Positions 9,701 to 25,409 of a stretch of 64,000 bases of DNA are shown in pieces. The DNA comes from the human T2T-CHM13v2.0 reference genome, Homo sapiens. The notes under the pieces were generated by a model, which had not been told where the DNA came from, did not search any database, and was given only the letters and a program-made list of their open reading frames with translations. Position numbers and translations under genes: made by a program. The stretch lies in assembly GCF_009914755.1 (NCBI RefSeq), contig NC_060932.1; one strand, written 5' to 3'. How positions within the stretch are numbered: the first letter of the stretch is position 1; each line of letters starts with the position of its first letter.

Positions 9701-12700
9701 AGATTTTAATACCCCACTGACAATATCAGACAGATCATTAAGACAGAAAATTAACAAAGATATTCAGGACCTGAACTAAGCTCTGGATCAAGTGGACCTC
9801 ATAGATATCTACAGAGCCCTCTACACAAAAACAACAGAATATGTATTCTTTTCATTGCCACAGCACTTACTCAAAAATTGATAACATAATTAAAAGTAAA
9901 ACATACCTCAGCAAATGCAAAAGAAATGAAATTATAACAAACAGTCTCTCAGACCATAGCACAAAATTAGAAGTCAAAATTAAGATATTCACTCAAAACC
10001 ACACAACTACATGGAAATTGAACAATATGCTCCTGAATGACTCCTGAGTAAATAATGAAATTCAGGCAGAAATAAAGAAGTTCTTTGAAACTAATGAGAA
10101 CAAAGAGACAACATACCAGAATACGTGGAATACAGCTAACGTGATGTTACAAGGGAAATTTATAGCACTAAATGCCCACATCAAAATGCTAGAAAGATCT
10201 CAAGTTAACAACCTAACATCACAATTAAAAGAACTATAGAACCAAGAGCAAAGAAACCCCAATGCTAGCAGAAGACAAGAAATAACCAAGATCAGAGTTG
10301 GACCTAAAGAAGATAGAACCATGAAAACCACTTCAAAAAAATGAATTCAGGAGCCAGTTTTTTGAAAAAATTAATAAAATAGATGGCTAGCTTGAATAAC
10401 AAAGGAGAAAAAAGAGACAAATCAAATAAACAATCAGAAATGACAAGGGGGATATTACCACTGACCCCACAGAAATACAAAGAACCATCAGAGATGACTA
10501 TCAACACCTCTATGTATATAAACTAGAAGATCTAGAAGAAATAGTTAAATTCCTGGACACTCTCCCAAGACTGAACCAGGAAGAAATTGAATCCCGAATA
10601 GAACAATAATGAGTACTGAAATTGAGGCAGTAATAAATAACCTACCAACCCCAAAAAACCCCAGGACAAGATGGATTTAGAGTTGAATTCCACCAGTGGT
10701 AAAAAGAAGAGCTGGTACCCTTTCTACTAAAACTATTCCAAAAAATTGAAAACAAGGGAATTTTCCCTAACTCATTTTATGATGTCAGCATCATCCTGAT
10801 ACCTAAACCTGGCAGAGATACAACAAAAAAAGAAAACTTCAGGCCAGTATCCCTGATGAACATCAATGCAAAAATCCTCAACAAAATACAGGCAAACCAG
10901 ATCCAGCAGCACATAAAAAAGCTTATGCACCACAATCAAGTTGGCTTCATCCCCATAATGCAAGGTTGGTTCAAAATACACAAATCAATAAATGTGATTC
11001 ATCATATAAATAGAACTTAAGACAAAAACCACATGATTATCTCAATATATGCAGAAAAGGCCTTCAATAAAGTTCAACATTAGTTCATGTTAAAAACTCT
11101 CAATAAACTAGGTATTGAAGGAACATACCTCAAAATAATAAGAGCCATATATGACAAACCCATAGCCAATATCATACTGAATGAGCAAAAGCTAGAAGCA
11201 TTCCCCTTGAAAACTGGCACAAGACAAGGCACAAGACAAGAATGCCCTCTCTCATCACTCCTATTCTGCACAATATTGGAAATTCTTGCCAGGGCAATCA
11301 GGCCAGAAAAAGAAATAAAGGATATTCAAATAGGAAGAGAGGAAGTCAAATTATCTTTGTTTACAGATGACATGATCTTATGTCTGGGAAACCCCATTGT
11401 TTCAGCTCAAAAGCTTTCTAAGCTGATAAGCAACCTCAGCAAAGTCTCAGGATACAAAATTAGTGTGCAAAAATTGCTAACATTTCTATTCAGCAAGAGC
11501 AGACAAGCCAAGAGCCAAATTATGAATGAACTCCCATTCACAATTGCTACAAAAAGACTAAAATTCCTAGGAATGTAGCTAACAAGGGAAGTGAAGGACC
11601 TCTTCAAGGAGAACTACAAACCACTGCTCAAAGAAATCAGAAAGAACACAACACAAACAAATGGAAAAGCATTCCATACTTATAAATAGGAAGGATCAAT
11701 ATCATGGAAATGGCCATACTGCCCAAAGTAATTTATAGATTCAATGCTATTCCCATTAAACTACCAGTGACATTTTTCACAGAATTAGAAAAACTATTTT
11801 AAAATTCTTATGGATCCAAGAAAGAGCCCAAATAGCCAAAACAATACTAAGCAATAAGAACAAAGCTGAGGCATCATGTTACCTTCAAACTGCAATACAA
11901 GGCAACAGTAACCAAAACAGTATGGTACTCATATAAGAACAGATGCATAAACCAATGGAACAGAATAGGGAACTCATAAATAAGACCACACAGCTACAGC
12001 CATCTGATCTTTGACAAACCTGACAAAAGGAATGGGGAAAGGATTCCCTATGTAGTACATGGTTTTGGGAGAATTCGCTAGCCATGTTCAGAAAATTGAA
12101 ACTGGACCCCTTCCTTATACCTTATACAAAAATTAACTCAAGATGGATTAAAAACTTAAATGTAAAATCCAAAACTATAAAAACCCTAGAAGAAAATCTA
12201 GACAATATCATTCAGGACATAGGTACAGGAAAAGATTTCATCACAAAAATGCCAAAAGCAGTTGCAACAAAAACCAAAATTGACAAATTGAATTTAATTA
12301 AACTAAAGAGCTTTTGTGCAGAAAAAGATACTATCATCAGTGCAAAGAGATAACCTACAGAATGGGAGAATACTTTTGCAATCTATCCAACTGACAAAGG
12401 TTTAATATCCAGTCTACAAGAAACTTAAATTCACAAGAAAAAACAACCCTATTCAAAAGTTGGCAAAGGGCATGAACATACGCTTCTCAAAAGAAGGCAT
12501 ATATACAGCCAAAAAATATGAAAAAAGCTCAATATCACTGATCATTAGGGAAATGCAAATCAAAACAACGAGATACCATCTTATGCCAGTAAGAATGGGT
12601 ATTATTAAAAAGTAAAAAATATAACAGTTGCTGGCAAGGTGTGGAGAAAAATGAATGCTTTTACATTTTTGGTGGGAGTGTAAATTAGTTCAACCATTGT

Positions 12701-13309
12701 GGAAGACAGTGTGGTGATTCCTCAAAGATCTAGAGGCAAAAGCACCAATTAACCCATCAATCTTATTACTAGGTATATACCTAGAGAAAGATAAATCATT
12801 TTATTATAAAGATACATGTATGGGTATCTTCATTGCGGCAATATTCACAATAGCAAAGACATGGAATCAACTCAAATGCCCATCAATGATAGACTGAATG
12901 AAGAAAATGTGGTACATATACACCATGGAATAAAAGGAACATAAAAGGAATAAAAGCAGACATAACAGGAACAAGATCATGCAGGGACATGGATGGAGCT
13001 GGAAGCCATTAGCCTCAGTATCCTCTGGAACAGAAAACCAAACACTGAATGTTTTCACTTACAAGTGGGAGCTGAACAATAAGAACACAGGGACACATGG
13101 TTCATGGAACAACACACACTGCGGCCTGTTGAGGGGAGTAGTAGGGGGAGGGAGAGCATCAGGAAAAATACTAATCAATGCTGGGCATAATACCTAGGTG
13201 ATGGGATGATCTGTGCAGCACAACATTATGGAACACATTTATTTATGTAACAAACCTGCACATCCTGCACATACACCCCTGAACTTAAAATAAAACTTGA
13301 AGAAAAAAA
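6767..13309 (+). mobile_element. Full-length inactive L1 (about L1PA11-L1PA14): 5'UTR, ORF1 from ~8172, ORF2 from ~9269, 3'UTR and A-tail
   Basis: 5' end 'gggggcaagattgctgactag'; ORF fragments with EN motif (IIVGDFNTPL) and RT motif (LFTDDMIL); many stops and frameshifts; 3'UTR 'gagagcatcaggaaaaata'. Confidence 0.92.
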
Positions 13310-13319
13310 TTCCAATATT

Positions 13320-13757
13320 AAAGTTAGTGTAGCCTTATTGCACAGTGTTTACAGTAGTGTACAGCAATGTACCAGGCCTTCACATTCATTCACCACTCAC
13401 TGACACATCCAGAGCAACTTCCAGTTCTGCAAGCTCCATTCATGGTAAGTTCCCTATAAAGGTGTACCATTTTTGCCTTTTATTCTGCATCTATACAGTA
13501 CCTTTTCTATCTTTAGATATGTTTATAAACACAAAAACTTACCATTATGTTACAATTGCCTGTGGTATTCAGTATAGTAAAATGCTGCACAGGTTTGTAG
13601 CCTAGGTGCAATAGGCTATACCATATAGCCCAGATGTACAATAGGCTATACCATCTAGGTTTGTGTAAGTGCACTCTATGATGCTCAAACAAAAATAAAA
13701 AGCCTAACAATGCATTTATCAGAATGTATCCCTGTCATGAAGTGACACATAACTATA
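13320..13757 (+). mobile_element. Tigger3 (Golem) DNA transposon, 3' portion
   Basis: 'ccaggccttcacattcattcaccactcactgac...gcaagctccattcatggtaag'; ends in TIR-like 'gacacataactata'. Confidence 0.8.
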
Positions 13758-16700
13758 TAACTATATTTTGATTTAGAAAAAGGCAGAAAGGAAATCCTTG
13801 ATGGTTGAAGAGTTAGCATGAGTAATCTCTTTACATATTTTCATGTAGTCCATCACTTTGTTTTGAGATTATTTGTGTAACTGTACATAAGATGTGTCTC
13901 TTGAAGACAGCATACTAATGGGTCTTGGTTCTTAATTAAGCTTGCCACTCTGTGTCTTTTAAGTGGGGCATGTAGCCCATTTACATTGAAGGTAAGTATT
14001 GATTTGTGTGGATTTGATCCTGTCATCATGATGTTAGCTGGTTATTTTGCAGACTTGTTTATGTGGTTCCTTTACAATATCACTGGTCTCTGACCTGCCT
14101 CACAAGAGTTCCAGAAAGAAGTACTAAATATAGAAAGGAAAGACTGTAACCAGCCCTAACCAAAACACACTGAAGTACACAAACCAGTAACTATAAAGCA
14201 ATCACATGAACAAGTCTGCAAAATAACCAGCTAACATCATGGTGACAGGATAAAATCCACACATATCAATACTAACCTTAAATGTAAACGGGCTACATGC
14301 CCCACTTAAAAGACACAGAGGGGCAACCTCAGTAAAGAACTAAGACCCATTAGTATGCTGTCTTCAAGAGACACATCTCACGTGCAATGACACAAATAGT
14401 CTCAAAATAAAGGGATGGAGAAAAATCTATCAAGCAAATGGAAAACAGAAAAAACAGGGGCTGCAATCCTAGTTGTTGACAAAACAGACGTTGAACATAG
14501 ATCAAAAAAGAAAAAGAAGGACATTTCATAATGTTAAAGAGTTCAATTAAACAAGAGGATCTAACTATCCTAAATAGATATGCACCCAAGAGAGGAACAC
14601 CCAGATTCATAAAACAGGTTCTTAGAGACCTTCAAAGAGAATTAGACTCCCACAGAATAATAGTGGGAGATTTTAACACCCCACTGACAATATTAGACAG
14701 ATCATTGAGACAGAAAATTAACAAAGATATTCAGGACCTGAACTCAGAATGGGAACAAATGGATTTGATAGCTATCTACAGAACTCTCCACCCCAAAACA
14801 AAAGAATATACATTCTTGCCATTGCTACATGGCACATTCTCTAAAACTGACCCCATAATTGAAAGTAAAAACACTCCTCAGCAAATGCAAAATAACTTAT
14901 AACAGTCTCTCAGACCACAGCACAATAAAATTAGATTCAAGACTAAGAAGTTCACTCAAAACCATACAATTACATGGAAATTGAATAACCTGGTCCTGAA
15001 TGACTTTTGGGTAAATAATGAAATTAAGGCAGAAATCAATAAGTTCTTTGAAACTAATGAGAACACAGATACAATGTACTAGAATCTCTGGGACAGAGGT
15101 AAGGGAGTGTTAAGAGGGAAATTTATAACACTAAATGCCCTCATCAAAAATTAGAAATATCTCAAGTTAGCAACCTAACATCACAACTAAAGGAGCTGGA
15201 GAACCAAGAGCAAATGAATTCCAAAGCTAGAAGAAGACAAGAAATAACCAAAATGAGAGCTGAACTGAAGATGATTGAGATATGAACAACCATACAAAAG
15301 ATCAATACATCCTGGGGCTGTTATTTAAAATAAATAAAATAGGCCAGTAGCTACGACCACTAAGAAGAGAAGAGAGAAGATTCAAGTATTACCACTGACC
15401 ACACAAGAAATACAACCATCAGAAAATATGAATACCTCTATGCACATAAACTATAAAATCTAGAATACATGGATAAATTCCTGAACATATACACCCTCCC
15501 AAGAATAAACCAGGAAGAAATTAAATCCTGAAAAGATCAATAACAAGCTCCAAAATTGAGGCAGTAATAAATAGCCTACCAACTAAAAAAAGCCCATACC
15601 AGATGGATGCACAGCTGAATTCTACCAGATGTATGACGAAGAGCTGGTATCATTTCTACTAAAACTATTCTGAACAATTCAGGAGAAGGGATTCCTCTCT
15701 AAGTCATTCTGTGAGGTCAGCATCATCCTAATACCAAAGCCTGACAGAGATACAACAAAAAAGAAAACTTCAGGCCAGTAGCCTGGATTCAATGCAAAAA
15801 TCCTCAACAAAATATGGGCAAACTGAATCCTGTAGTACATAAAAAAGCTTATCCAGCATGAACAAGTAGATTTTATCCCTGGCATACAAGATTGGTTTAA
15901 CAAAGGCTAATCAATAAATGTGATTCATCACATAAACAGAACTAAGGACAAAAACCACATGGTTATTTCAATAGATGGAGAAAAGCCTTTCGATAAATTC
16001 AACATCCATTCATGTTAAAAACTCTGAATAAACTAGGTATTGAAGGAACATACCTCAAAATAATAAGAGCTATCTATGACAAACCCACAGCCAACATCAT
16101 ACTAAATGGGCAAAATCCGGAAGCTTCCCCTTGAAAACCGGCACAAAACAAGGATGCCCTCTCTTACCACTCCTGGAAGTCCTTGCCAGGGCCATTAGGC
16201 AAGATAAAAAAAAAAAAAGGAGATCTAAATAGGAAGAGAGGAAGTCAAACTATCTCTTTTTGCAGATGACAAGATTCTATTTCTAGAAAACCCCATAGTC
16301 TCAGCCTGAAAGCTTCTTAAGCTGATAAACAACTTCAGTAAAGTCTCAGGATTCAAAATCAATGTACAAAAATTGCTAGCATACTTATACACCAACAGCA
16401 GTCAAGCTGAGAGCCAAATCAAGAATGCACTCCCATTCACAATTGCCACAAAAAGAATAAAATACCTAGGAATACAGGGAAGTGAAAGATCTCTACAAGG
16501 AGAAATACAAAAGCTGCTCAAAGAAATTAGAGATAACATAAAAAAATGAAAAAACATTCCATGCTCATGGATAGGAAGGATCAATATTGTGAAAATGGCC
16601 ATACTGCTGAAAGCAATTTATTGATTCAATGTTATTCCTATTAAGCTATCAATGAGATTCTTCACAAAACTTAAAAAAAAACTATTTTAAAATTCATATG

Positions 16701-18710
16701 GAACCAAAAAAGAGTCCAAATAGCCAAGGCAATCCTAAGCAAAAAGAACAAAGTTGGAGGGATCATGCTACATGACCTCAAACAATACTACAGGGATACA
16801 GTAATCAAAACAGCATTGTACTGATACAAAACAGTCACATAGACCGATGGAACAGAGTAGAGAACCCAGAAATAAGACTGCACAGCTACAAGTATCTGAT
16901 CTTCAACAAACCTGACAAAAACAAGCAATGGGAAAAGTACTCCCTATTCAATAAATGGTCCTGGGATAACTGGCTAGCCGTATGCAGAAGACTGAAGCTG
17001 GACCACTTCTTTATACTACATACAAAAAATTAACTCAAGATGGAATAAAGACTTAAATGTAAATCCCAAAACTATGAAAACCCTGGTAGACAATCTAGGC
17101 AATACCATCCAAGACATACACATGGGAAAGGATTTCATGATGAAGACTCCAAAAGCATATGCAACAAAAGCAAAAATTGACAAATAGTATCTATTTAAAC
17201 TAGAGGGCTTCTGCATAGCAAAGGAAACTATCAAGAGTAAACAGACAACCTACAGAATGGGAGAAAATATTTGCAATCTGTGCATCTGACAAGACCTAAT
17301 ATCCAGCATCTGTAAAGAACTTAAACAAATTTACAAGAAGAAAAAAACAAATAACCCTATTAAAAAGTAGGCAAAGGTTATGAACAGACACTTCTCAAAA
17401 GAAGACATACATGTGACCAACAATGATATGAAGAAAAGCTCAACATCACTGATCATTAGAGAAATACAAATCAAAACCACAATGAGATACCATCTCACAC
17501 CAGTCAGAATGGTTATTACTAATAAGTCAAAAAATAACACATGCTTGTGAGGCTGTGGAGAAAAAGGAGCACTTTTGCTCTGTTAGTGGGATTGTAAATT
17601 ATTTCAACCATTGTGGAAGACAGTGTGGCGATTTTTCAAAGTCCTAAAGACAGAAATAACAATTATAATAAAATAGAGTGATTTATATTCCTTTGGGTAT
17701 ATATCCAGCAATTCCTTTGGGTATATACCCATACCATTGCTGGTTATATACCCAAAGGAATATAAATCACTCTATTGTAAAGACACATGCACGTGTATGT
17801 TCATTGCGGCACTATTCACAATAGCAAATACTTGGAATCAACCTAAATGCCTATCAGTGATAGAGCAGATAAGAAAATGCGGTACATATACACCATGGAA
17901 TACTATGCAGCCATAAAAAAAGAATGAGATCAGCAGCTGCGGTGGCTGGGCATGGAGTGTGAGTGGCCTGAGTCCCACGGGTGACTGCTCCAGGGCTTCT
18001 CCCCGCCTGCACCAGGCGCTGTTCGAAAGCGCGCCCTCCACTCATGAAGCGCTTGAGCTCTGTGCAGTGGAAAATGCCGTGTGTTTGTGACGGCGGTGAA
18101 AGAGGAGCCTTCTGCCAAAAGGGAACATCAGATCAGCCATAGCTTTGGGCCCAGCTAGATAGAAAGCTCAACAAACAAGTTGAAAAAAGATTTTAAAATC
18201 TTCTACATTCAAATGAAAACCCAAAATAATTTTTTTTGGAATGTTGAGGAGGACTTCAAACCGGCTCTAGAGTGCTGGATACCAGCAAAGGAAATAGAAC
18301 AAATAAATAGGAACCCAGTGCCTAATGAAAATAGATACATTCCTGATTGGGTACCAGTATAGAAAAACAACAAACAGTATTGCTAGCATTCCTCTGTAGT
18401 TAATTATGAATTTGAAATTGCCCTGGTACTAAAACATCATGCTGATGATTCTGGACTTTTGGAAATTACTGCAGTGCCACTATCAGATCTCTTAGAACAA
18501 ACACTGGAGATCACAGGAAAAAATATCAATGGAAACCCATATGCGTTAGGGAGCAAGAAACATCCATTACAACTTCTTATACCACATGGAGCGTTTCAAA
18601 TAAGAAATCTACCTTCGTTGAAGCACAATGATATCATGTCCTGGTTTGAAGGTTGCAGTGGGTAAAATTGAAGGAATAGTATGGCATCGCAGTGATGGCT
18701 GTTAATAAAG

Positions 18711-18839
18711 GTGCTGGACATACACAGTCAACCAAACAAGGTGTCTGCCTTCATGAAGCTCACATTCTGATGGGGAAGGTAGACAATAAACAAATGTGTA
18801 ATATGTCAGGAGAAGAACAGCTATGAAAAAAAAAACAGG
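18711..18839 (-). mobile_element. L2-derived 129-nt segment inside the pseudogene CDS (probable cassette exon of the parent mRNA)
   Basis: 'tctgccttcatgaagctcacattctgatggggaaggtagacaataaacaa' resembles the antisense L2 3' region; sits exactly between the K and V codons of the 'K-VHRHHL' motif. Confidence 0.65.
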
Positions 18840-19819
18840 GTCCATCGTCATCATCTTGGCTTATGCTGGTCAATTCAAGATACTTACATGAATTCAAGAG
18901 CAGTTATTATCAACGTGTACCTGAAAAACTGTGACTCTGCCTTGATGTTAAGTGTTTGTTTAATCATTTTTCAAAAGTACATAATCAGAAATTTGCTAGA
19001 CTCAAAGATATAATATTTGATATATAAAATGCAAATAAAATTATTTTATTATCATTATATTTTAATCTTGAATATTCTACCATGTTTAAGAATATCTCAA
19101 GGTTCCTGTTCATTATGAAACATCAATTTGTCTTCTACCATTTGTGAAGAAATGAATTTTCCAGTTTCAAATATCTATTTAAAATTTTATTAAAAACCAG
19201 CAAATTAATTTTAATCTCTAGCCATAAAAACATAAGTAACAGTAAGCTCCTAAGCTTGTACAAAGGCTGGATTCTCTCCACTATAATTGAGTGGTAATTT
19301 AAAGACAACAATTAAACCAAGAATTTAATGTCACTAATTTTCAAAATTACATAGTTTAAGCTCAATTTGATTTTGCTAGGTATTTAACAAAACATATGGC
19401 TCAACTTCATAACCTATATGTGTGTATGTCTACATCTGTATTTATGTACATCATAGTTAGGATTTGAGAATCTTACCATATGTATAAATAAGTATATATA
19501 AACTCCAATTTTAAATATTAAAATTGCTGAATTTACCCTCATGCTCTTTAAAAAACTTAAAACTTTATGAATGTAGAGAAATTCACCAGAGCTCATTGCC
19601 TATTTGATGGCCATAACTTACTCTAAGTCTTCAGATATATACGTTTATAATAGGTTGAAAATTTCATATAATTTTATTTATTAAGAATTCCAATCTAAGT
19701 ATAAAGGTACAAGGTAGTGAGAAGGAAACACTACAGCTCAGAGAATTTCTTATTTCCAGATCGATTTTAACATATAAAGTTAATAAATATTTAAACGAAA
19801 CAAAGTTTATAGGTGACCT

Positions 19820-20059
19820 TTAGTAAATGGGGAAATGAACAAGACTTTCTTCTTCATCTTCAAACTCTTCAGAAGCAGCAACAGGGCTAGTTAATTCAAC
19901 TCCCAATTGTTCTGGAAGTTTTTTTTTTTTTTTAACCTTCTCTTCTAAGAGAATATTGTTCTTCACTTCTTCCTTGTAATTATACTTCAGATCTTCAATT
20001 TCTTTGAAAAATGAAGGATCAAAATTTTGGAGTTCTTTTTTCAGCTTTTTTATTTCCTC
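19820..20059 (-). pseudogene. CEP290: Copy of the CEP290 terminal coding exon, carried antisense within the RLIG1 retrocopy 3' UTR
   Basis: Minus strand reads EEIKKLKKELQNFDPSFFKEIEDLKYNYKEEVKNNILLEEKV..EQLGVELTSPVAASEEFEDEEESLVHFPIY*, matching the recalled CEP290 C-terminus; preceded by acceptor 'tttctattAG' (20060-20061). Confidence 0.88.
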
Positions 20060-23000
20060 CTAATAGAAACATTATCTTTAAAAGTTGCATATAGGAAATA
20101 TACATATTTTAGGCTTGAACTAAGAGATTTAACTGTAAATATGAAAGCCAACGTATTCCTGAATGGTCAGATACAGCTATAAAGGCAGAAGTATTAAGAT
20201 TTTTGTTTGCTCCATTGTACAGTGTAAATAACTAAGTTGTTAACTGTCAAGTCCAATTATCTATTTTGTAAGTTGTGTTCTAGTCTTTGACTAAAATTTA
20301 TCAACTCTTATAACGGGATTTAATCTTTCTCTAAAAGCACATAAGATCCTCTCAATAGAGCAATCAATCAAGAAGATTTTGTGATTCATAACACTGAAGT
20401 TAGTCTGGTTAAGAGTTTTGGGTTAGACTTAATTTATGTTTTCATTACAAATGTCTAATTTTTAATGAATAATGATCAACTTTTTATAAAGTTATTAATA
20501 TGATCAGGGAAACCTTTGGGACTTCTGCCAATTAGGCATCTGGTAAAGAGAGAATTCAAGCCTTAGTGACTGTTTAGAGTAGTCAGTGATCACTAGCTAA
20601 CGCTTATATCCATGCTTTTTTGTCCTGTTTGCAGTATTCAAGGAGGTAAAACATAGCAAATATATTTTTTAAGTGAACTATAACCTTAAGATTACTGAAA
20701 AGAATTTCAAAGCAAATTAAAGACACTGTTGCCAATGTGACCCAAAACTTAAGAACATACTAATGGCATATATTTGTTATAATTAAAAAATAAATTTACT
20801 ATTTAATCCTAAAAAAAAATGAGATCATGTCCTTTGCAAGGACATGAATGGAGCTGGAGGCCATTATCCTAGGCAAAATAATGCAGGAACAGAAAACCAA
20901 ATACCGGTGTTCTCACTTATAAGTGGGAGCTAAATTATGAGAACACATTGACACACAGCGGGGAACAACACACACTGGGGCCTATCAGAGGGTGGAAGGT
21001 GGGAAGAAGGAGAGGATCAGGAAAAATAACTTATGGGTACTAGGCTTAATACCTGAGTGATGAAATGATCTGTACAAAAAAACCCTGTGCCACAAATTTA
21101 CCTATGTAACAAACCTGCGCACGTACTCCTGAACTTAAAATAAAAGTTAAAAAAAAATCCTAAATTAAGTATTCAAATTATGAAGCTAGAAAATGAATAG
21201 TAAATAAGAAAAGGCAACTGGAAGGAATAAAGTATGAAATACATATAAAGGCAAAGAGATAAATATACTAAAAACCTGAAGATCACCACTTTTTAAATAT
21301 TAAAAGAGATATAAATAATTATAGCTGTCAAAATGATGTTTTAGAATAAAACTGTTTTGTAACATCATGTGCCAATAAGTATGAGAATACAGATTTTCCC
21401 CAGCAAAATATAAACAATTAAATTGATCCCACAAATGAATAAAAACTTGAATAAGAACCACAGAAGAAATCAGAAAGTGGTTAAAAGGTATATTATTTTA
21501 AATACACCGAAGCCATATGATCTTTTACTGAGATATAATAAGGCCTTAAACTATGTATTTCAGCATTTTAAAACAATGTAGACTGTAGAAAAGACAAAAA
21601 TGATTGGTTATGTTATGTTAATTGATATAAAATCTTATTTAGTATAATAAGAAAAGTACATATTAATTTGTTAGATAAAAGGTTGAAATATTAGCAAACT
21701 AAATCCAGTGGTATATTCTAAGTGCTACTTCTCATGCATAGGACTGTGTTTGGCACACATTAAGTGCTCTATAAATATTGGTTGATTAAAAAATAAACCT
21801 TTAGTTTATTGGAATAAGAGCAGTAGCCACATATGATTATTAGGAAACATTATCTGCCAAGTAATTTTTACAATATAGTGTTAGTGTAATCACACATTTA
21901 TGATTATGTCAGTTTATATGTAAACATATAGAAAATTATTGAAGGATACATACCAAGTTATTAAAATCAGGCACAGGAGATATGTTCAAAGAGTATGTAT
22001 TATTTTAGTTCTTAAACATGTAGTAACATAATTTTAAAAAATTATTATCTGGAAAAAAAACTTATGACTAGATAATTGACTCCAGATAGAGAATACAGAG
22101 TTGCAAGAGCAGTGAGCTGAAGAAAGAACCCTAGACATACCAACATTGGTGAGACTAGCCAACTATTATCTGCAACTTATGTGTAATTTTTCTGGTTTTA
22201 AACTCAGTATATAACACACATGTTCTCAAGCTTGAAATTCTGAATTCTTTCACTTTTAAAAATACCTTACCCAATAAATAACCAAATTCTGTCATATTTA
22301 CTTCTTAAATATTCTCATTCATCTTTCCTTTTCATTGCCTCTGCCCTGCCTTAACACACAATTCATACTTTTCAGTACTATTTTACAACCTCTGCAAAGA
22401 TTTCAATTTTGTCTTCCTCCCATGCATTTTCTGAATCATAGTCATAAGTTTCCTTATATTAGGTCTGAAATAGAACTCTTGATATTTTGCCCATGGGCAC
22501 ATTATAGCTCCTGTCTTCCTCAATTCAGTAAGTGGTTCTAACATCCATTCAGTCATAGCCAGAAAACTCCCCTTTCCACAGTCCGCTATAGTTCAAAATA
22601 TATTTGTTTTGAATTTATCCCAACTCTTGTCCTCTCTGTTGTTACTACCTCAGTTCAGTTTTACAGGGCACTGAGTTGCTCCTTCCACTGCACCCACCTT
22701 TATAACTATCTTTTCCTCTTTCCCAACTTCTGCATTATGCCAGATAGCTGTATTAAGGAAATTGCATCAATATGCCGGTTTATACAATTTCAAAGGTATG
22801 GTCTCCAGCTCCAGGTAGACATTCAGTGCTATTCAGAAATTTGTCTACATGTTATGTTCAAAGTTTTTTTCTAATTTACTAAAAAATCATTTATAAAAGT
22901 TTTGCTGACCGTTGCAATGAACATCTACTTGAGGATCAATAGTGGCTTTACTTTCTTCTTCAGAGAGCCATTAGTCAGGAATTTTATTAATTTATTGTTC

Positions 23001-23587: not shown

Positions 23588-25409
23588 TTTCAGCTTTCTA
23601 CATATGGCTAGCCAGTTTTCCCAACACCGTTTTTTAAATAGGGAATCTTTTTCCCATTTCTTGTTTTTGTCAGGTTTGTCAAAGATAAGATTGTTGTTGT
23701 AGATGTGTGGTGTTATTTCTGAGGCCTCTGTTCTGTTCCATTGGTCTATCTTTCTGTTTTGGTACCAGTACCATGCTGTTTTGGTTACTGCAGCCTTGTA
23801 GTATAGTTTGCAGTTGGGTAGCATGATGCCTCCAGCTTTGTTCTTTTTGCTGAGGATTGTCTTGGCAATGCGGGCTCTTTTTGGTTCCATATGAACTTTA
23901 AAGTAGTTTTTTCCAATTCTGTAAAGAAAGTCATTGGTAGCTTGAGGGAGATAGCATTGAATCTATAAATTACGTTGGGCAGTACAACTGTTTTCACAAT
24001 ATTGATTCTTCCTATCCATGAACATAGAATGTTCTTCCACTTGTTTGTGTCCTCTTTTATTTCGTTGAGCAGTGGTTTATAGTTCTCCTTGAAGAGGTCC
24101 TTCACATCCCTTGTAAGTTGGATTCCTAGGTATTTTATTCTCTTTGTAGCAATTGTGAATGCGAGTTCACTCATGATTTGGCTGTCTGTTTGTCTGGTAT
24201 TGGTGTATAGGAATGCTCCCTTCCTTACATCTTATACAAAAATTAATTCAAGATGGATTAAAGACTTAAATGTTAGACCTAAAACCATAAAAACCCTAGA
24301 AGAAAACCTAGGCATTACCATTCAGGACATAGGCATGGTCAAGGACTTCATGACTAAAACACCAAAAGCAATGCCAACAAAAGCCAAAAGCCAAAATAGA
24401 CAAATGGGATCTAATGAAACTAAAGAGCTTCTGCACAGCAAAAGAAACTACCATCAGAGTGAACAGACAACCTACAGAATGGGAGAAAATTTTTGCAATC
24501 TACCCATCCGACAAAGGGCTAATATCCAGAATCTACAAAGAACTTAAACAAATTTACAAGAAAAAAACAAACAACCCCATCAAAAAGTGGGCAAAGAATA
24601 TGAACAGACACTACTCAAAGAAGACATTTATGTAGCCAACAGACACATGAAAAAATGCCCATCATCACTGGTCATCAGAGAAATGCGGATCAAAACCACA
24701 ATGAGATACCATCTCACACCAGTTAGAATGGCGATCATTAAAAAGTCAGGAAACATCAGGTGCTGGAGAGGATGTGGAGAAATAACACTTTTACACTGTT
24801 GGTGGGAGTGTAAACTAGTTCAACCATTGTAGAAGATAGTGTGGCAATTCCTCAAGGATCTAGAACTTGAAATACCATTTGACCCAGCAATCCCATTACT
24901 GGGTATATACCCAAAGGATTATAAATCATGCTACTATAAAGACACATGCACACGTATGTCTATTGCAGCACTATTTACAATAGCAAAAACTTGGAACCAA
25001 CCCAAATTTCCATCAATGATAGACTGGATTAAGAAAATGTGGCACATATACACCATGGAATATTATGCAGACATAAAAAAGAATGAGTTTATGTCCTTTG
25101 TAGGGACATGGATGAAGCTGGAAACCATTATTTTCAGCAAACTATCGCAAGGACAGAAAACCAAACACTGCATGTTCTCACTTATAGGTGGGAATTGAAC
25201 AATGAGAACACTTGGACACAGGGCGGTGAGCATCACACATGGGGGCTTGTCGTGGGGTGGGAGGCAGGGGGAGGGGTAGCATTAGGAGAAATACCTAATG
25301 TAAATGATGAGTTAATGGATGCAGCAAACCGACATGACACATGTATACCTATGTAACAAACCTGCACATTGTGCACATGTACCCTAAAACTTAAAGTACA
25401 AAAAAAAAA
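23588..25409 (+). mobile_element. 5'-inverted (twin-primed) L1, about L1PA5: inverted part 23588-~24216 (-), forward part ~24217-25409 (+)
   Basis: ORF2 peptides switch strand at 'ggaatgc|tcccttcctt'; 15-bp TSD gaagttattttcagc (23580-23594) / gaaattcttttcagc (25410-25424). Confidence 0.92.

What the first reader, a model, noticed from the sequence alone, without database searches (positions are those of the whole stretch)
17933..20827. RLIG1 (C12orf29) RNA-ligase retrocopy nested in an L1 preserves a non-canonical mRNA isoform
Seen: a 2.9-kb non-L1 insert with a GC-rich 5' leader, intronless disabled CDS, AATAAA, A-tail and 10-bp TSD, landing in the A-run of the L1 near the end of ORF2; the L1 resumes in register after it. 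Known: the peptides match the recalled C12orf29/RLIG1 protein. Inference: L1-mediated retrotransposition froze a germline transcript with three atypical features (listed separately), giving a fossil record of RLIG1 splicing and 3'-end processing that postdates the host L1.
Basis: partly seen in the sequence, partly recalled or inferred. Interest (0 to 1): 0.75.

Follow-up and report, generated by a model that had tools for sequence, protein, structure and literature searches.

The report
Dead RLIG1 retrocopy inside an L1
This is an ordinary, already annotated dead copy of the RNA-ligase gene RLIG1, pasted into an older L1 repeat from a mis-spliced messenger RNA; it has value only as a small fossil record of how that gene was spliced.

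Summary
Window 17933-20810 is an L1-mediated processed pseudogene of RLIG1 (annotated as RLIG1P3). It sits in an older L1 about 37 codons before the end of ORF2. The parent lies on contig C12 of the same genome.

- **Structure:** six introns are removed exactly.
- **Missing exon:** the copy lacks the 118-nt exon 2. That exon carries the catalytic K57 in KVDG, and skipping it shifts the frame.
- **Extra exon:** the copy contains a 127/128-nt cassette exon from the last intron, which has AG and GT splice sites in the parent.
- **3' end:** it ends at a distal poly(A) site 1.74 kb past the stop codon.
- **Antisense cargo:** this long 3'UTR carries, in antisense, the last coding exon of CEP290 and about 750 nt of its last intron.
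- **Decay:** the copy was dead on arrival. It has since gained 5 stop codons and 5 frame-shifting indels, and differs from the parent by K2P 0.07.

The genome holds two older RLIG1 retrocopies. The C5 copy also lacks exon 2. Both older copies lack the cassette exon and end at a proximal poly(A) site.

The RefSeq model stops at 19089 and treats the cassette exon as a gap, so it under-calls the copy by 1.7 kb. The finding is sound but ordinary, and I found no sign of function.

The parts
17337..17931 (+). Left part of the host L1 (3' end of ORF2). It ends in an A-run (17915-21) followed by GAATGAGATC.
   Evidence: The frame 17677-17916 matches L1 ORF2p residues 1173-1222 (E 4e-17). The flank matches 5 other places in the window.
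17915..17931 (+). 5' copy of the target-site duplication. The exact 9-bp core is 17923-17931.
17933..18131 (+). Exon 1 of RLIG1: 5'UTR, ATG at 18045, codons 1-30. It carries a 21-nt deletion before the ATG and a 2-nt deletion in codons 12-13.
   Evidence: Matches C12:88017395-88017616.
18132..18227 (+). Exon 3, joined directly to exon 1. The 118-nt exon 2 (codons 31-69, with K57-V-D-G) is absent.
   Evidence: The junction is exact. Exon 2 was found in the parent at C12:88022026-88022143.
18228..18345 (+). Exon 4
18346..18543 (+). Exon 5
18544..18710 (+). Exon 6
18711..18839 (+). Cassette exon (E6b) from the parent's last intron. It is not part of the conserved protein and derives from an old dispersed repeat.
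   Evidence: 95% identical to C12:88029870-88029997, which has an AG acceptor and a GTAAGA donor. There are 5 further partial matches elsewhere in the genome.
18840..20810 (+). Last exon: end of the CDS (stop 19025-19027), unused proximal AATAAA at 19034, and a 1.74-kb 3'UTR running to the distal poly(A) site.
   Evidence: Colinear with C12:88030112-88032037, K2P 0.067.
19655..20059 (-). Antisense copy of the last exon of CEP290. The splice acceptor is at 20060/20059, the stop codon is at 19817-19819 and the minus-strand AATAAA is at 19682. The lower bound, 19655, is an estimate.
   Evidence: The 79-aa ORF is 88% identical to a primate CEP290 and 81% to the cattle protein. Splice and poly(A) context come.
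20060..20810 (-). Antisense copy of the 3' end of CEP290's last intron, unspliced. This shows the template was the RLIG1-sense transcript.
20789..20794 (+). Distal AATAAA poly(A) signal
20811..20826 (+). A-run (9 A) plus the 3' copy of the target-site duplication. The exact core is 20818-20826.
20827..21168 (+). Right part of the host L1 (last codons of ORF2 and the 3'UTR), in register with the left part.
18613..18766 (-). Exon of the predicted lncRNA LOC105375629, antisense to exons 6 and E6b of the retrocopy.
   Evidence: Coordinates are from the hub annotation. The minus-strand AG acceptor and GT donor were confirmed. The exon is 93% identical to the parent, with a longest perfect run of 33 nt.

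Best explanation
An RLIG1 mRNA from the chromosome-12 gene was reverse-transcribed and inserted by the L1 machinery (target-primed reverse transcription). It landed at a T-rich nick in the A-run near the end of ORF2 of an older, already inactive L1.

The template was an unproductive isoform:
- It was near full length at the 5' end.
- Exon 2 was skipped, which removes the adenylated lysine K57 and shifts the frame.
- A repeat-derived cassette exon was included between exons 6 and 7.
- It was cleaved at a distal poly(A) site 1.74 kb past the stop codon, inside the last intron of the convergent neighbour CEP290.

The copy could therefore never encode a ligase, and it has decayed neutrally since. 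Shown here: the parentage, the junctions, the lesions, the nesting in the L1 and the identity of the antisense CEP290 exon. Inferred: the TPRT mechanism, expression in the germline or early embryo, and an age of roughly 25-35 Myr.
For: - **Parentage:** there are seven colinear blocks against C12, with introns of 0.1-7 kb removed. Every block is bounded by AG/GT in the parent.
- **Exon 2:** the E1/E3 junction is exact. The parent's exon 2 covers Pfam profile positions 30-74 and translates to a peptide containing KVDG. K57 is the adenylation site (passages of PMC9931718, and of PMC11494293). In the parent, skipping exon 2 gives a 38-aa ORF, and including E6b gives 282 aa with a stop inside E6b.
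- **Retrotransposition marks:** AATAAA 16 nt before the end, an A-run and a TSD.
- **Host L1:** L1 ORF2p match and flanks in register.
- **Decay:** 193 mismatches in 2828 aligned positions and 79 gap columns, K2P 0.072. There are 5 stops and 5 frame-shifting indels, and dN/dS is 0.64 over 275 codons.
- **Copy census:** a whole-genome Pfam search finds only the parent and three retrocopies.
Against: - The E6b/E7 junction in the copy has two more G than today's parental GT/AG sites predict. This needs small indels or a since-changed donor.
- The A-tail is very short and merges with the L1's own A-run.
- One unmatched base (17932) lies between the TSD and the insert.
- No expression or primate-orthologue data could be consulted, so the dating and the tissue of origin are inference.
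Confidence: 0.93

Rival explanations
1. A DNA-level (segmental) duplication of the RLIG1 locus, later trimmed by deletions.
For: None beyond the sequence similarity.
Against: Six introns are missing, at exact or near-exact exon boundaries. The copy ends at a poly(A) signal followed by an A-run, and it is flanked by a TSD inside an L1 that is otherwise continuous.
Confidence: 0.01
2. A chimeric retrocopy in which the reverse transcriptase switched templates from an RLIG1 mRNA to an unrelated RNA from the CEP290 region.
For: The 3' 1.15 kb carries CEP290 sequence in antisense.
Against: The whole last block (1.93 kb in the parent) is colinear with C12 genomic DNA from the exon 7 acceptor to the distal site, with no breakpoint. 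The CEP290 intron is retained, and the terminal AATAAA is in the RLIG1 sense. A single long RLIG1 3'UTR explains all of this.
Confidence: 0.03
3. The missing exon 2 and the extra 128 nt arose after a canonical mRNA was inserted, by deletion and insertion, and do not reflect splicing.
For: The copy does carry other indels, such as a 21-nt deletion in the 5'UTR.
Against: - The exon 2 loss is exact to the base, and both copies of the short ATCAG repeat at the join are kept, so slippage did not cause it.
- An independent, older retrocopy on C5 has the same exact E1/E3 join.
- The extra piece matches a segment of the parent's last intron that is bounded by AG and GTAAGA.
Confidence: 0.02
4. The locus has gained a function. 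Its antisense strand supplies an exon to the lncRNA LOC105375629, which could pair with RLIG1 mRNA.
For: The annotated exon 18613-18766 (-) has canonical splice sites. It is 93% complementary to RLIG1 exons 6 and E6b, with a perfect run of 33 nt.
Against: The lncRNA is only a predicted model. I saw no expression, conservation or perturbation data. Chance exonisation of antisense repeat sequence is common (general knowledge).
Confidence: 0.04

Closest known systems
RLIG1P3 (RefSeq pseudogene annotation of this locus, as supplied by the hub)
   Same: Same locus and same parent gene; it is the same object.
   Different: The annotation spans 17910-19089 in two blocks. The true retrocopy runs from 17933 to 20810, which adds 1.72 kb of 3'UTR-derived sequence. 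The annotated gap at 18711-18838 is a spliced-in cassette exon, not an insertion. The annotated start includes 23 nt of L1 and TSD.
The two other RLIG1 retrocopies in this genome (C5:57.949 Mb and C3:112.117 Mb; presumably RLIG1P1 and RLIG1P2, names not checked)
   Same: All three are near full-length processed copies of RLIG1. The C5 copy shares the exact exon 2 skip.
   Different: - Both are older: K2P over exons 3-6 is 0.105 (C5) and 0.160 (C3), against 0.070 here.
- Both join exon 6 to exon 7 canonically.
- Both end at the proximal poly(A) site 30-40 nt past the stop codon, and both are interrupted by Alu insertions.
- The C3 copy retains exon 2.
Processed pseudogenes as fossils of splice variants (Shemesh et al. 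2006, PNAS)
   Same: The idea is the same: a retrocopy freezes an alternative mRNA isoform. I saw only this paper's title, in the reference list of PMC5470649; its content is recalled.
   Different: Nothing differs in kind. This is one more example, notable only because both splice changes make the template non-productive.
Functional RLIG1 / C12orf29 5'-3' RNA ligase (PF17720)
   Same: Sequence descent. Pfam profile positions 14-31, 84-145, 155-245 and 263-297 are recognisable.
   Different: The copy lacks the KxDG lysine and Asp59. Its frame was broken at birth and has decayed further. It is not a ligase gene.

Membership tests
L1-mediated processed pseudogene (retrocopy) | An intron-containing parent gene elsewhere in the genome, with introns removed precisely in the copy | tested here: met
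   The parent is at C12:88017395-88032037. There are six exon-exon joins. Five are exact, and the E6b/E7 join is off by two G.
L1-mediated processed pseudogene (retrocopy) | The 3' end lies at a poly(A) signal and is followed by an A-tail | tested here: met
   AATAAA at 20789, the end of parent homology at 20810 and a 9-A run. The tail is short and merges with the target's A-run.
L1-mediated processed pseudogene (retrocopy) | Target-site duplication flanking the insert | tested here: met
   9 bp exact, or 17 versus 16 nt with one indel. The host L1 is continuous across the site in two other L1 copies, with a 17-nt overlap of the flanks.
L1-mediated processed pseudogene (retrocopy) | Insertion at an L1 endonuclease-type target (a T-run followed by A on the nicked strand) | tested here: met
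   The TSD begins at a 7-A run preceded by T (17914-17921). The endonuclease consensus itself is recalled, not taken from a tool.
Active RLIG1 RNA ligase (PF17720) | KxDG motif with the adenylated lysine (K57) | tested here: not met
   Exon 2, which encodes it, is absent. The role of K57 comes from passages of PMC9931718 and PMC11494293.
Active RLIG1 RNA ligase (PF17720) | An uninterrupted reading frame of about 325 codons | tested here: not met
   5 stop codons and 5 frame-shifting indel events in the parental frame, plus the exon 2 frameshift and the E6b insertion.
Expressed or functional retrogene | Sense-strand transcription and selective constraint | not testable with these tools
   No expression data were available. 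The pairwise dN/dS of 0.64 includes the constrained parental branch and fits relaxed constraint.

The most novel reading that the evidence does not exclude
Exon 2 skipping of RLIG1 both removes the catalytic lysine and shifts the frame. The proposal is that it is not splicing noise but a long-lived, abundant splice form in the primate germline or early embryo.

Two independent retrotransposition events of different age captured it: the C5 copy (K2P 0.105) and this copy (K2P 0.070). A skipped-exon event in C12orf29 is also reported as conserved in human, chimpanzee and orangutan iPSCs, although the text does not name the exon (10.1101/2023.04.21.537863, passages).

This would point to regulated unproductive splicing that sets the dose of RLIG1. 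The convergent overlap of the RLIG1 and CEP290 3' ends would be similarly old.
Probability: 0.25. Interest if true: 0.35.

Novelty: already known. Interest (0 to 1): 0.15.

Why it matters
It matters little beyond annotation.

- **Annotation:** RLIG1P3 should extend to 20810, and its internal gap is really an exon.
- **Splicing history:** together with its two sister copies, it gives a three-point fossil series for RLIG1 mRNA structure. The series records exon 2 skipped in 2 of 3 copies, one cassette-exon inclusion, and the proximal poly(A) site in 2 of 3 copies against the distal site in 1.
- **Neighbouring gene:** it shows that RLIG1-sense transcription already ran through the last exon of CEP290 tens of millions of years ago.
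- **Current biology:** this could interest people who study RLIG1 regulation or convergent RLIG1/CEP290 transcription. It changes no current view.

Tried and rejected
- **PDB sequence search, RLIG1 piece:** no hit. The only RLIG1 structure mentioned in the passages I read is of a Yasminevirus homologue.
- **PDB sequence search, right L1 flank, 36 aa:** no hit.
- **Pfam on L1-region ORFs:** 28 ORF pieces from the L1 region gave no reverse-transcriptase hit. The only results were a sub-threshold endonuclease hit at 14501-14902 and a sub-threshold COX2 hit at 12024-12353, which I take as spurious.
- **ESM Atlas on the left L1 flank:** no usable hit.
- **Literature:**
  - No held paper names RLIG1P1, RLIG1P2 or RLIG1P3, or 'RLIG1 pseudogene'.
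  - Searches pairing C12orf29 with CEP290, with overlap, with polyadenylation and with exon skipping gave nothing on the 3' overlap or on named isoforms. The exception is one preprint that mentions an unnamed skipped exon.
  - PMC1360558 is not held.
- **Slippage between short repeats as the cause of exon 2 loss:** rejected, because both repeat copies remain.
- **Not attempted:** a protein-database search for annotated isoforms that skip exon 2 or include E6b. The isoform-specific peptide is only 19 aa, and the query would have needed joined sequence.
Full report
**What is there.** The sequence 17933-20810 interrupts a dispersed repeat.

- The repeat's left flank, in the frame 17677-17916, matches human L1 ORF2p residues 1173-1222 of about 1275 (E 4e-17). 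By extrapolation the break lies about 37 codons before the ORF2 stop.
- When the two flanks are compared with other L1 copies in the same window (24558-25300 on the plus strand, 32136-31622 on the minus strand), they abut with a 17-nt overlap. This overlap is the duplicated A-run plus GAATGAGATC.
- The host L1 is therefore continuous and in register, so the insert is younger than it.
- The exact duplication is 9 bp (17923-31 and 20818-26). It extends to 17 versus 16 nt with one indel.
- A 9-A run (20811-19) follows the insert, and AATAAA lies 16 nt before its end.
- The first 200 nt are GC-rich, at 0.53-0.59.

**Identity and parent.**

- Four frame pieces hit Pfam PF17720 (RLIG1), with E-values from 0.005 down to 3e-39.
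- A search of the window's own genome with the insert finds seven colinear blocks on C12:88017395-88032037.
- A whole-genome scan with PF17720 finds only that locus, exon by exon, and three intronless copies on C8 (this one), C5 and C3.
- In the parent every block is bounded by AG and GT. The spliced parental exons give a 325-codon ORF.

**The template was a non-canonical mRNA.**

1. *Exon 2 is missing.*
   - Exon 2 lies at C12:88022026-88022143 and is 118 nt long, covering codons 31-69. It is absent from the copy, and the E1/E3 join is exact.
   - Its translation contains K57-V-D-G. K57 is the auto-adenylated lysine of the KxDG motif (passages of PMC9931718; passages of PMC11494293, where the mouse knockout also targets exon 2).
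   - Because 118 is not a multiple of 3, skipping gives a 38-aa ORF in the parent.
2. *A cassette exon is included.*
   - Window 18711-18839 is 95% identical to C12:88029870-88029997, a segment of the last intron with a pyrimidine-rich AG acceptor and a GTAAGA donor.
   - Both flanking introns are removed, so this is a cassette exon and not intron retention.
   - It is not part of the conserved protein: the Pfam profile runs from exon 6 straight into exon 7.
   - In the parent it brings a stop codon after 19 codons, giving 282 aa.
   - It has 5 further partial matches across the genome at 78-87% identity, so it derives from an old interspersed repeat. It looks like MIR to me, but that is recall and was not tested.
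   - One detail is unexplained. The copy has two more G at the E6b/E7 join than today's splice sites predict.
3. *A distal poly(A) site was used.*
   - The copy runs 1.74 kb past the stop codon to a distal poly(A) site (C12:88032037), passing an AATAAA at 19034.
   - The region 19820-20059 on the minus strand is an ORF 88% identical to a primate CEP290 and 81% to cattle CEP290, ending at the protein's C-terminus.
   - On that strand it has a splice acceptor at 20060/20059, a stop at 19817-19 and an AATAAA at 19682.
   - The RLIG1 3'UTR therefore overlaps, tail to tail, the whole last exon of CEP290 and about 750 nt of its last intron. The intron is retained, as expected for an RLIG1-sense template.

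**Sister copies.**

| Copy | K2P to parent, exons 3-6 | Exon 2 | E6/E7 join | 3' end |
|---|---|---|---|---|
| C3 | 0.160 | kept | canonical | near C12:88030326; A-tail displaced by an Alu |
| C5 | 0.105 | skipped; same exact E1/E3 join | canonical | near C12:88030335; A-rich tail |
| C8 (this copy) | 0.070 | skipped | cassette exon E6b included | distal site, C12:88032037 |

Exon 2 skipping was thus captured twice, independently. The cassette exon and the distal end are unique to this copy.

One preprint reports a skipped-exon event in C12orf29 with a conserved polysome profile in human, chimpanzee and orangutan iPSCs (10.1101/2023.04.21.537863, passages only). The exon is not named in the text, and the preprint's supplements were closed.

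**State of the copy.**

- Against the virtual spliced parent there are 2828 aligned positions, 193 mismatches and 79 gap columns, giving 93.2% identity and K2P 0.072.
- In the parental frame there are stops at codons 73, 91, 102, 146 and 154. There are indels of -2, +1, -2, -1 and -1 nt, and 46 amino-acid differences in 281 codons.
- A 21-nt deletion lies in front of the ATG.
- dN/dS is 0.64.
- The copy was dead on arrival and has drifted since.
- A distance of about 0.07 is close to the human-macaque genomic divergence as I recall it. I therefore infer an age of roughly 25-35 Myr. This could not be tested, because no primate genomes were at hand.

**Comparison with what is known.**

- The locus is annotated as RLIG1P3, spanning 17910-19089 in two blocks. 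The annotation misses 1.72 kb of 3'UTR-derived sequence, treats the cassette exon as a gap and starts 23 nt too early.
- No held paper names RLIG1P1, RLIG1P2 or RLIG1P3.
- The use of processed pseudogenes as fossils of splice variants is established. I saw only the title of Shemesh et al. 2006, in the reference list of PMC5470649.
- I could not test whether the distal site is non-canonical today. My recollection is that the annotated RLIG1 gene overlaps the CEP290 3' end, which would make it the canonical end.

**Other readings.** I rejected segmental duplication, template-switch chimerism and post-insertion indels, for the reasons given under the rival explanations. The only hint of present-day use is the predicted lncRNA exon 18613-18766 on the minus strand. 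It has canonical splice sites and is 93% complementary to RLIG1 exons 6 and E6b. I give this a low probability.

Noticed in passing
window 17669-17712 and 17736-17779: A 44-nt inverted repeat, 95% complementary, with 23 nt between the arms. It lies inside the host L1 about 150 nt upstream of the insertion site, and other L1 copies align poorly across it. It looks like a local palindromic rearrangement of the L1.
   Followed up: partly
window 18613-18766 (-): The annotated exon of the predicted lncRNA LOC105375629 lies wholly inside the retrocopy, in antisense. Its acceptor (pyrimidine tract plus AG) comes from the antisense strand of the repeat-derived cassette exon, and its GT donor comes from exon 6. 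It is 93% identical to the parent, with a 33-nt perfect run.
   Followed up: partly
L003 (C5:57947501-57953500) and L004 (C3:112115501-112121500): Two older RLIG1 retrocopies, each broken by several Alu insertions. The C5 copy also lacks exon 2. In the C3 copy an Alu sits just before the retrocopy's own poly(A) tail.
   Followed up: yes
window 20548-20762; L005 (C10:123859425-123859802, minus): The last ~200 nt of the RLIG1 distal 3'UTR match a place on C10 at 75-86% identity, there split by an Alu. This part of the distal UTR, which ends shortly before the distal poly(A) signal, is therefore itself repeat-derived.
   Followed up: no
window 12024-12353 (+): A weak, sub-threshold Pfam COX2 hit (E 0.007, 16.7 bits against a cut-off of 22). 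It lies next to another L1 3' fragment (12435-13321) and is probably spurious.
   Followed up: no
window 14501-14902 (+): A sub-threshold hit to the endonuclease-reverse transcriptase family (PF14529, E 0.0024). It lies where the endonuclease domain of a long host L1 would be, so the host element may extend about 6 kb upstream of its 3' end.
   Followed up: no
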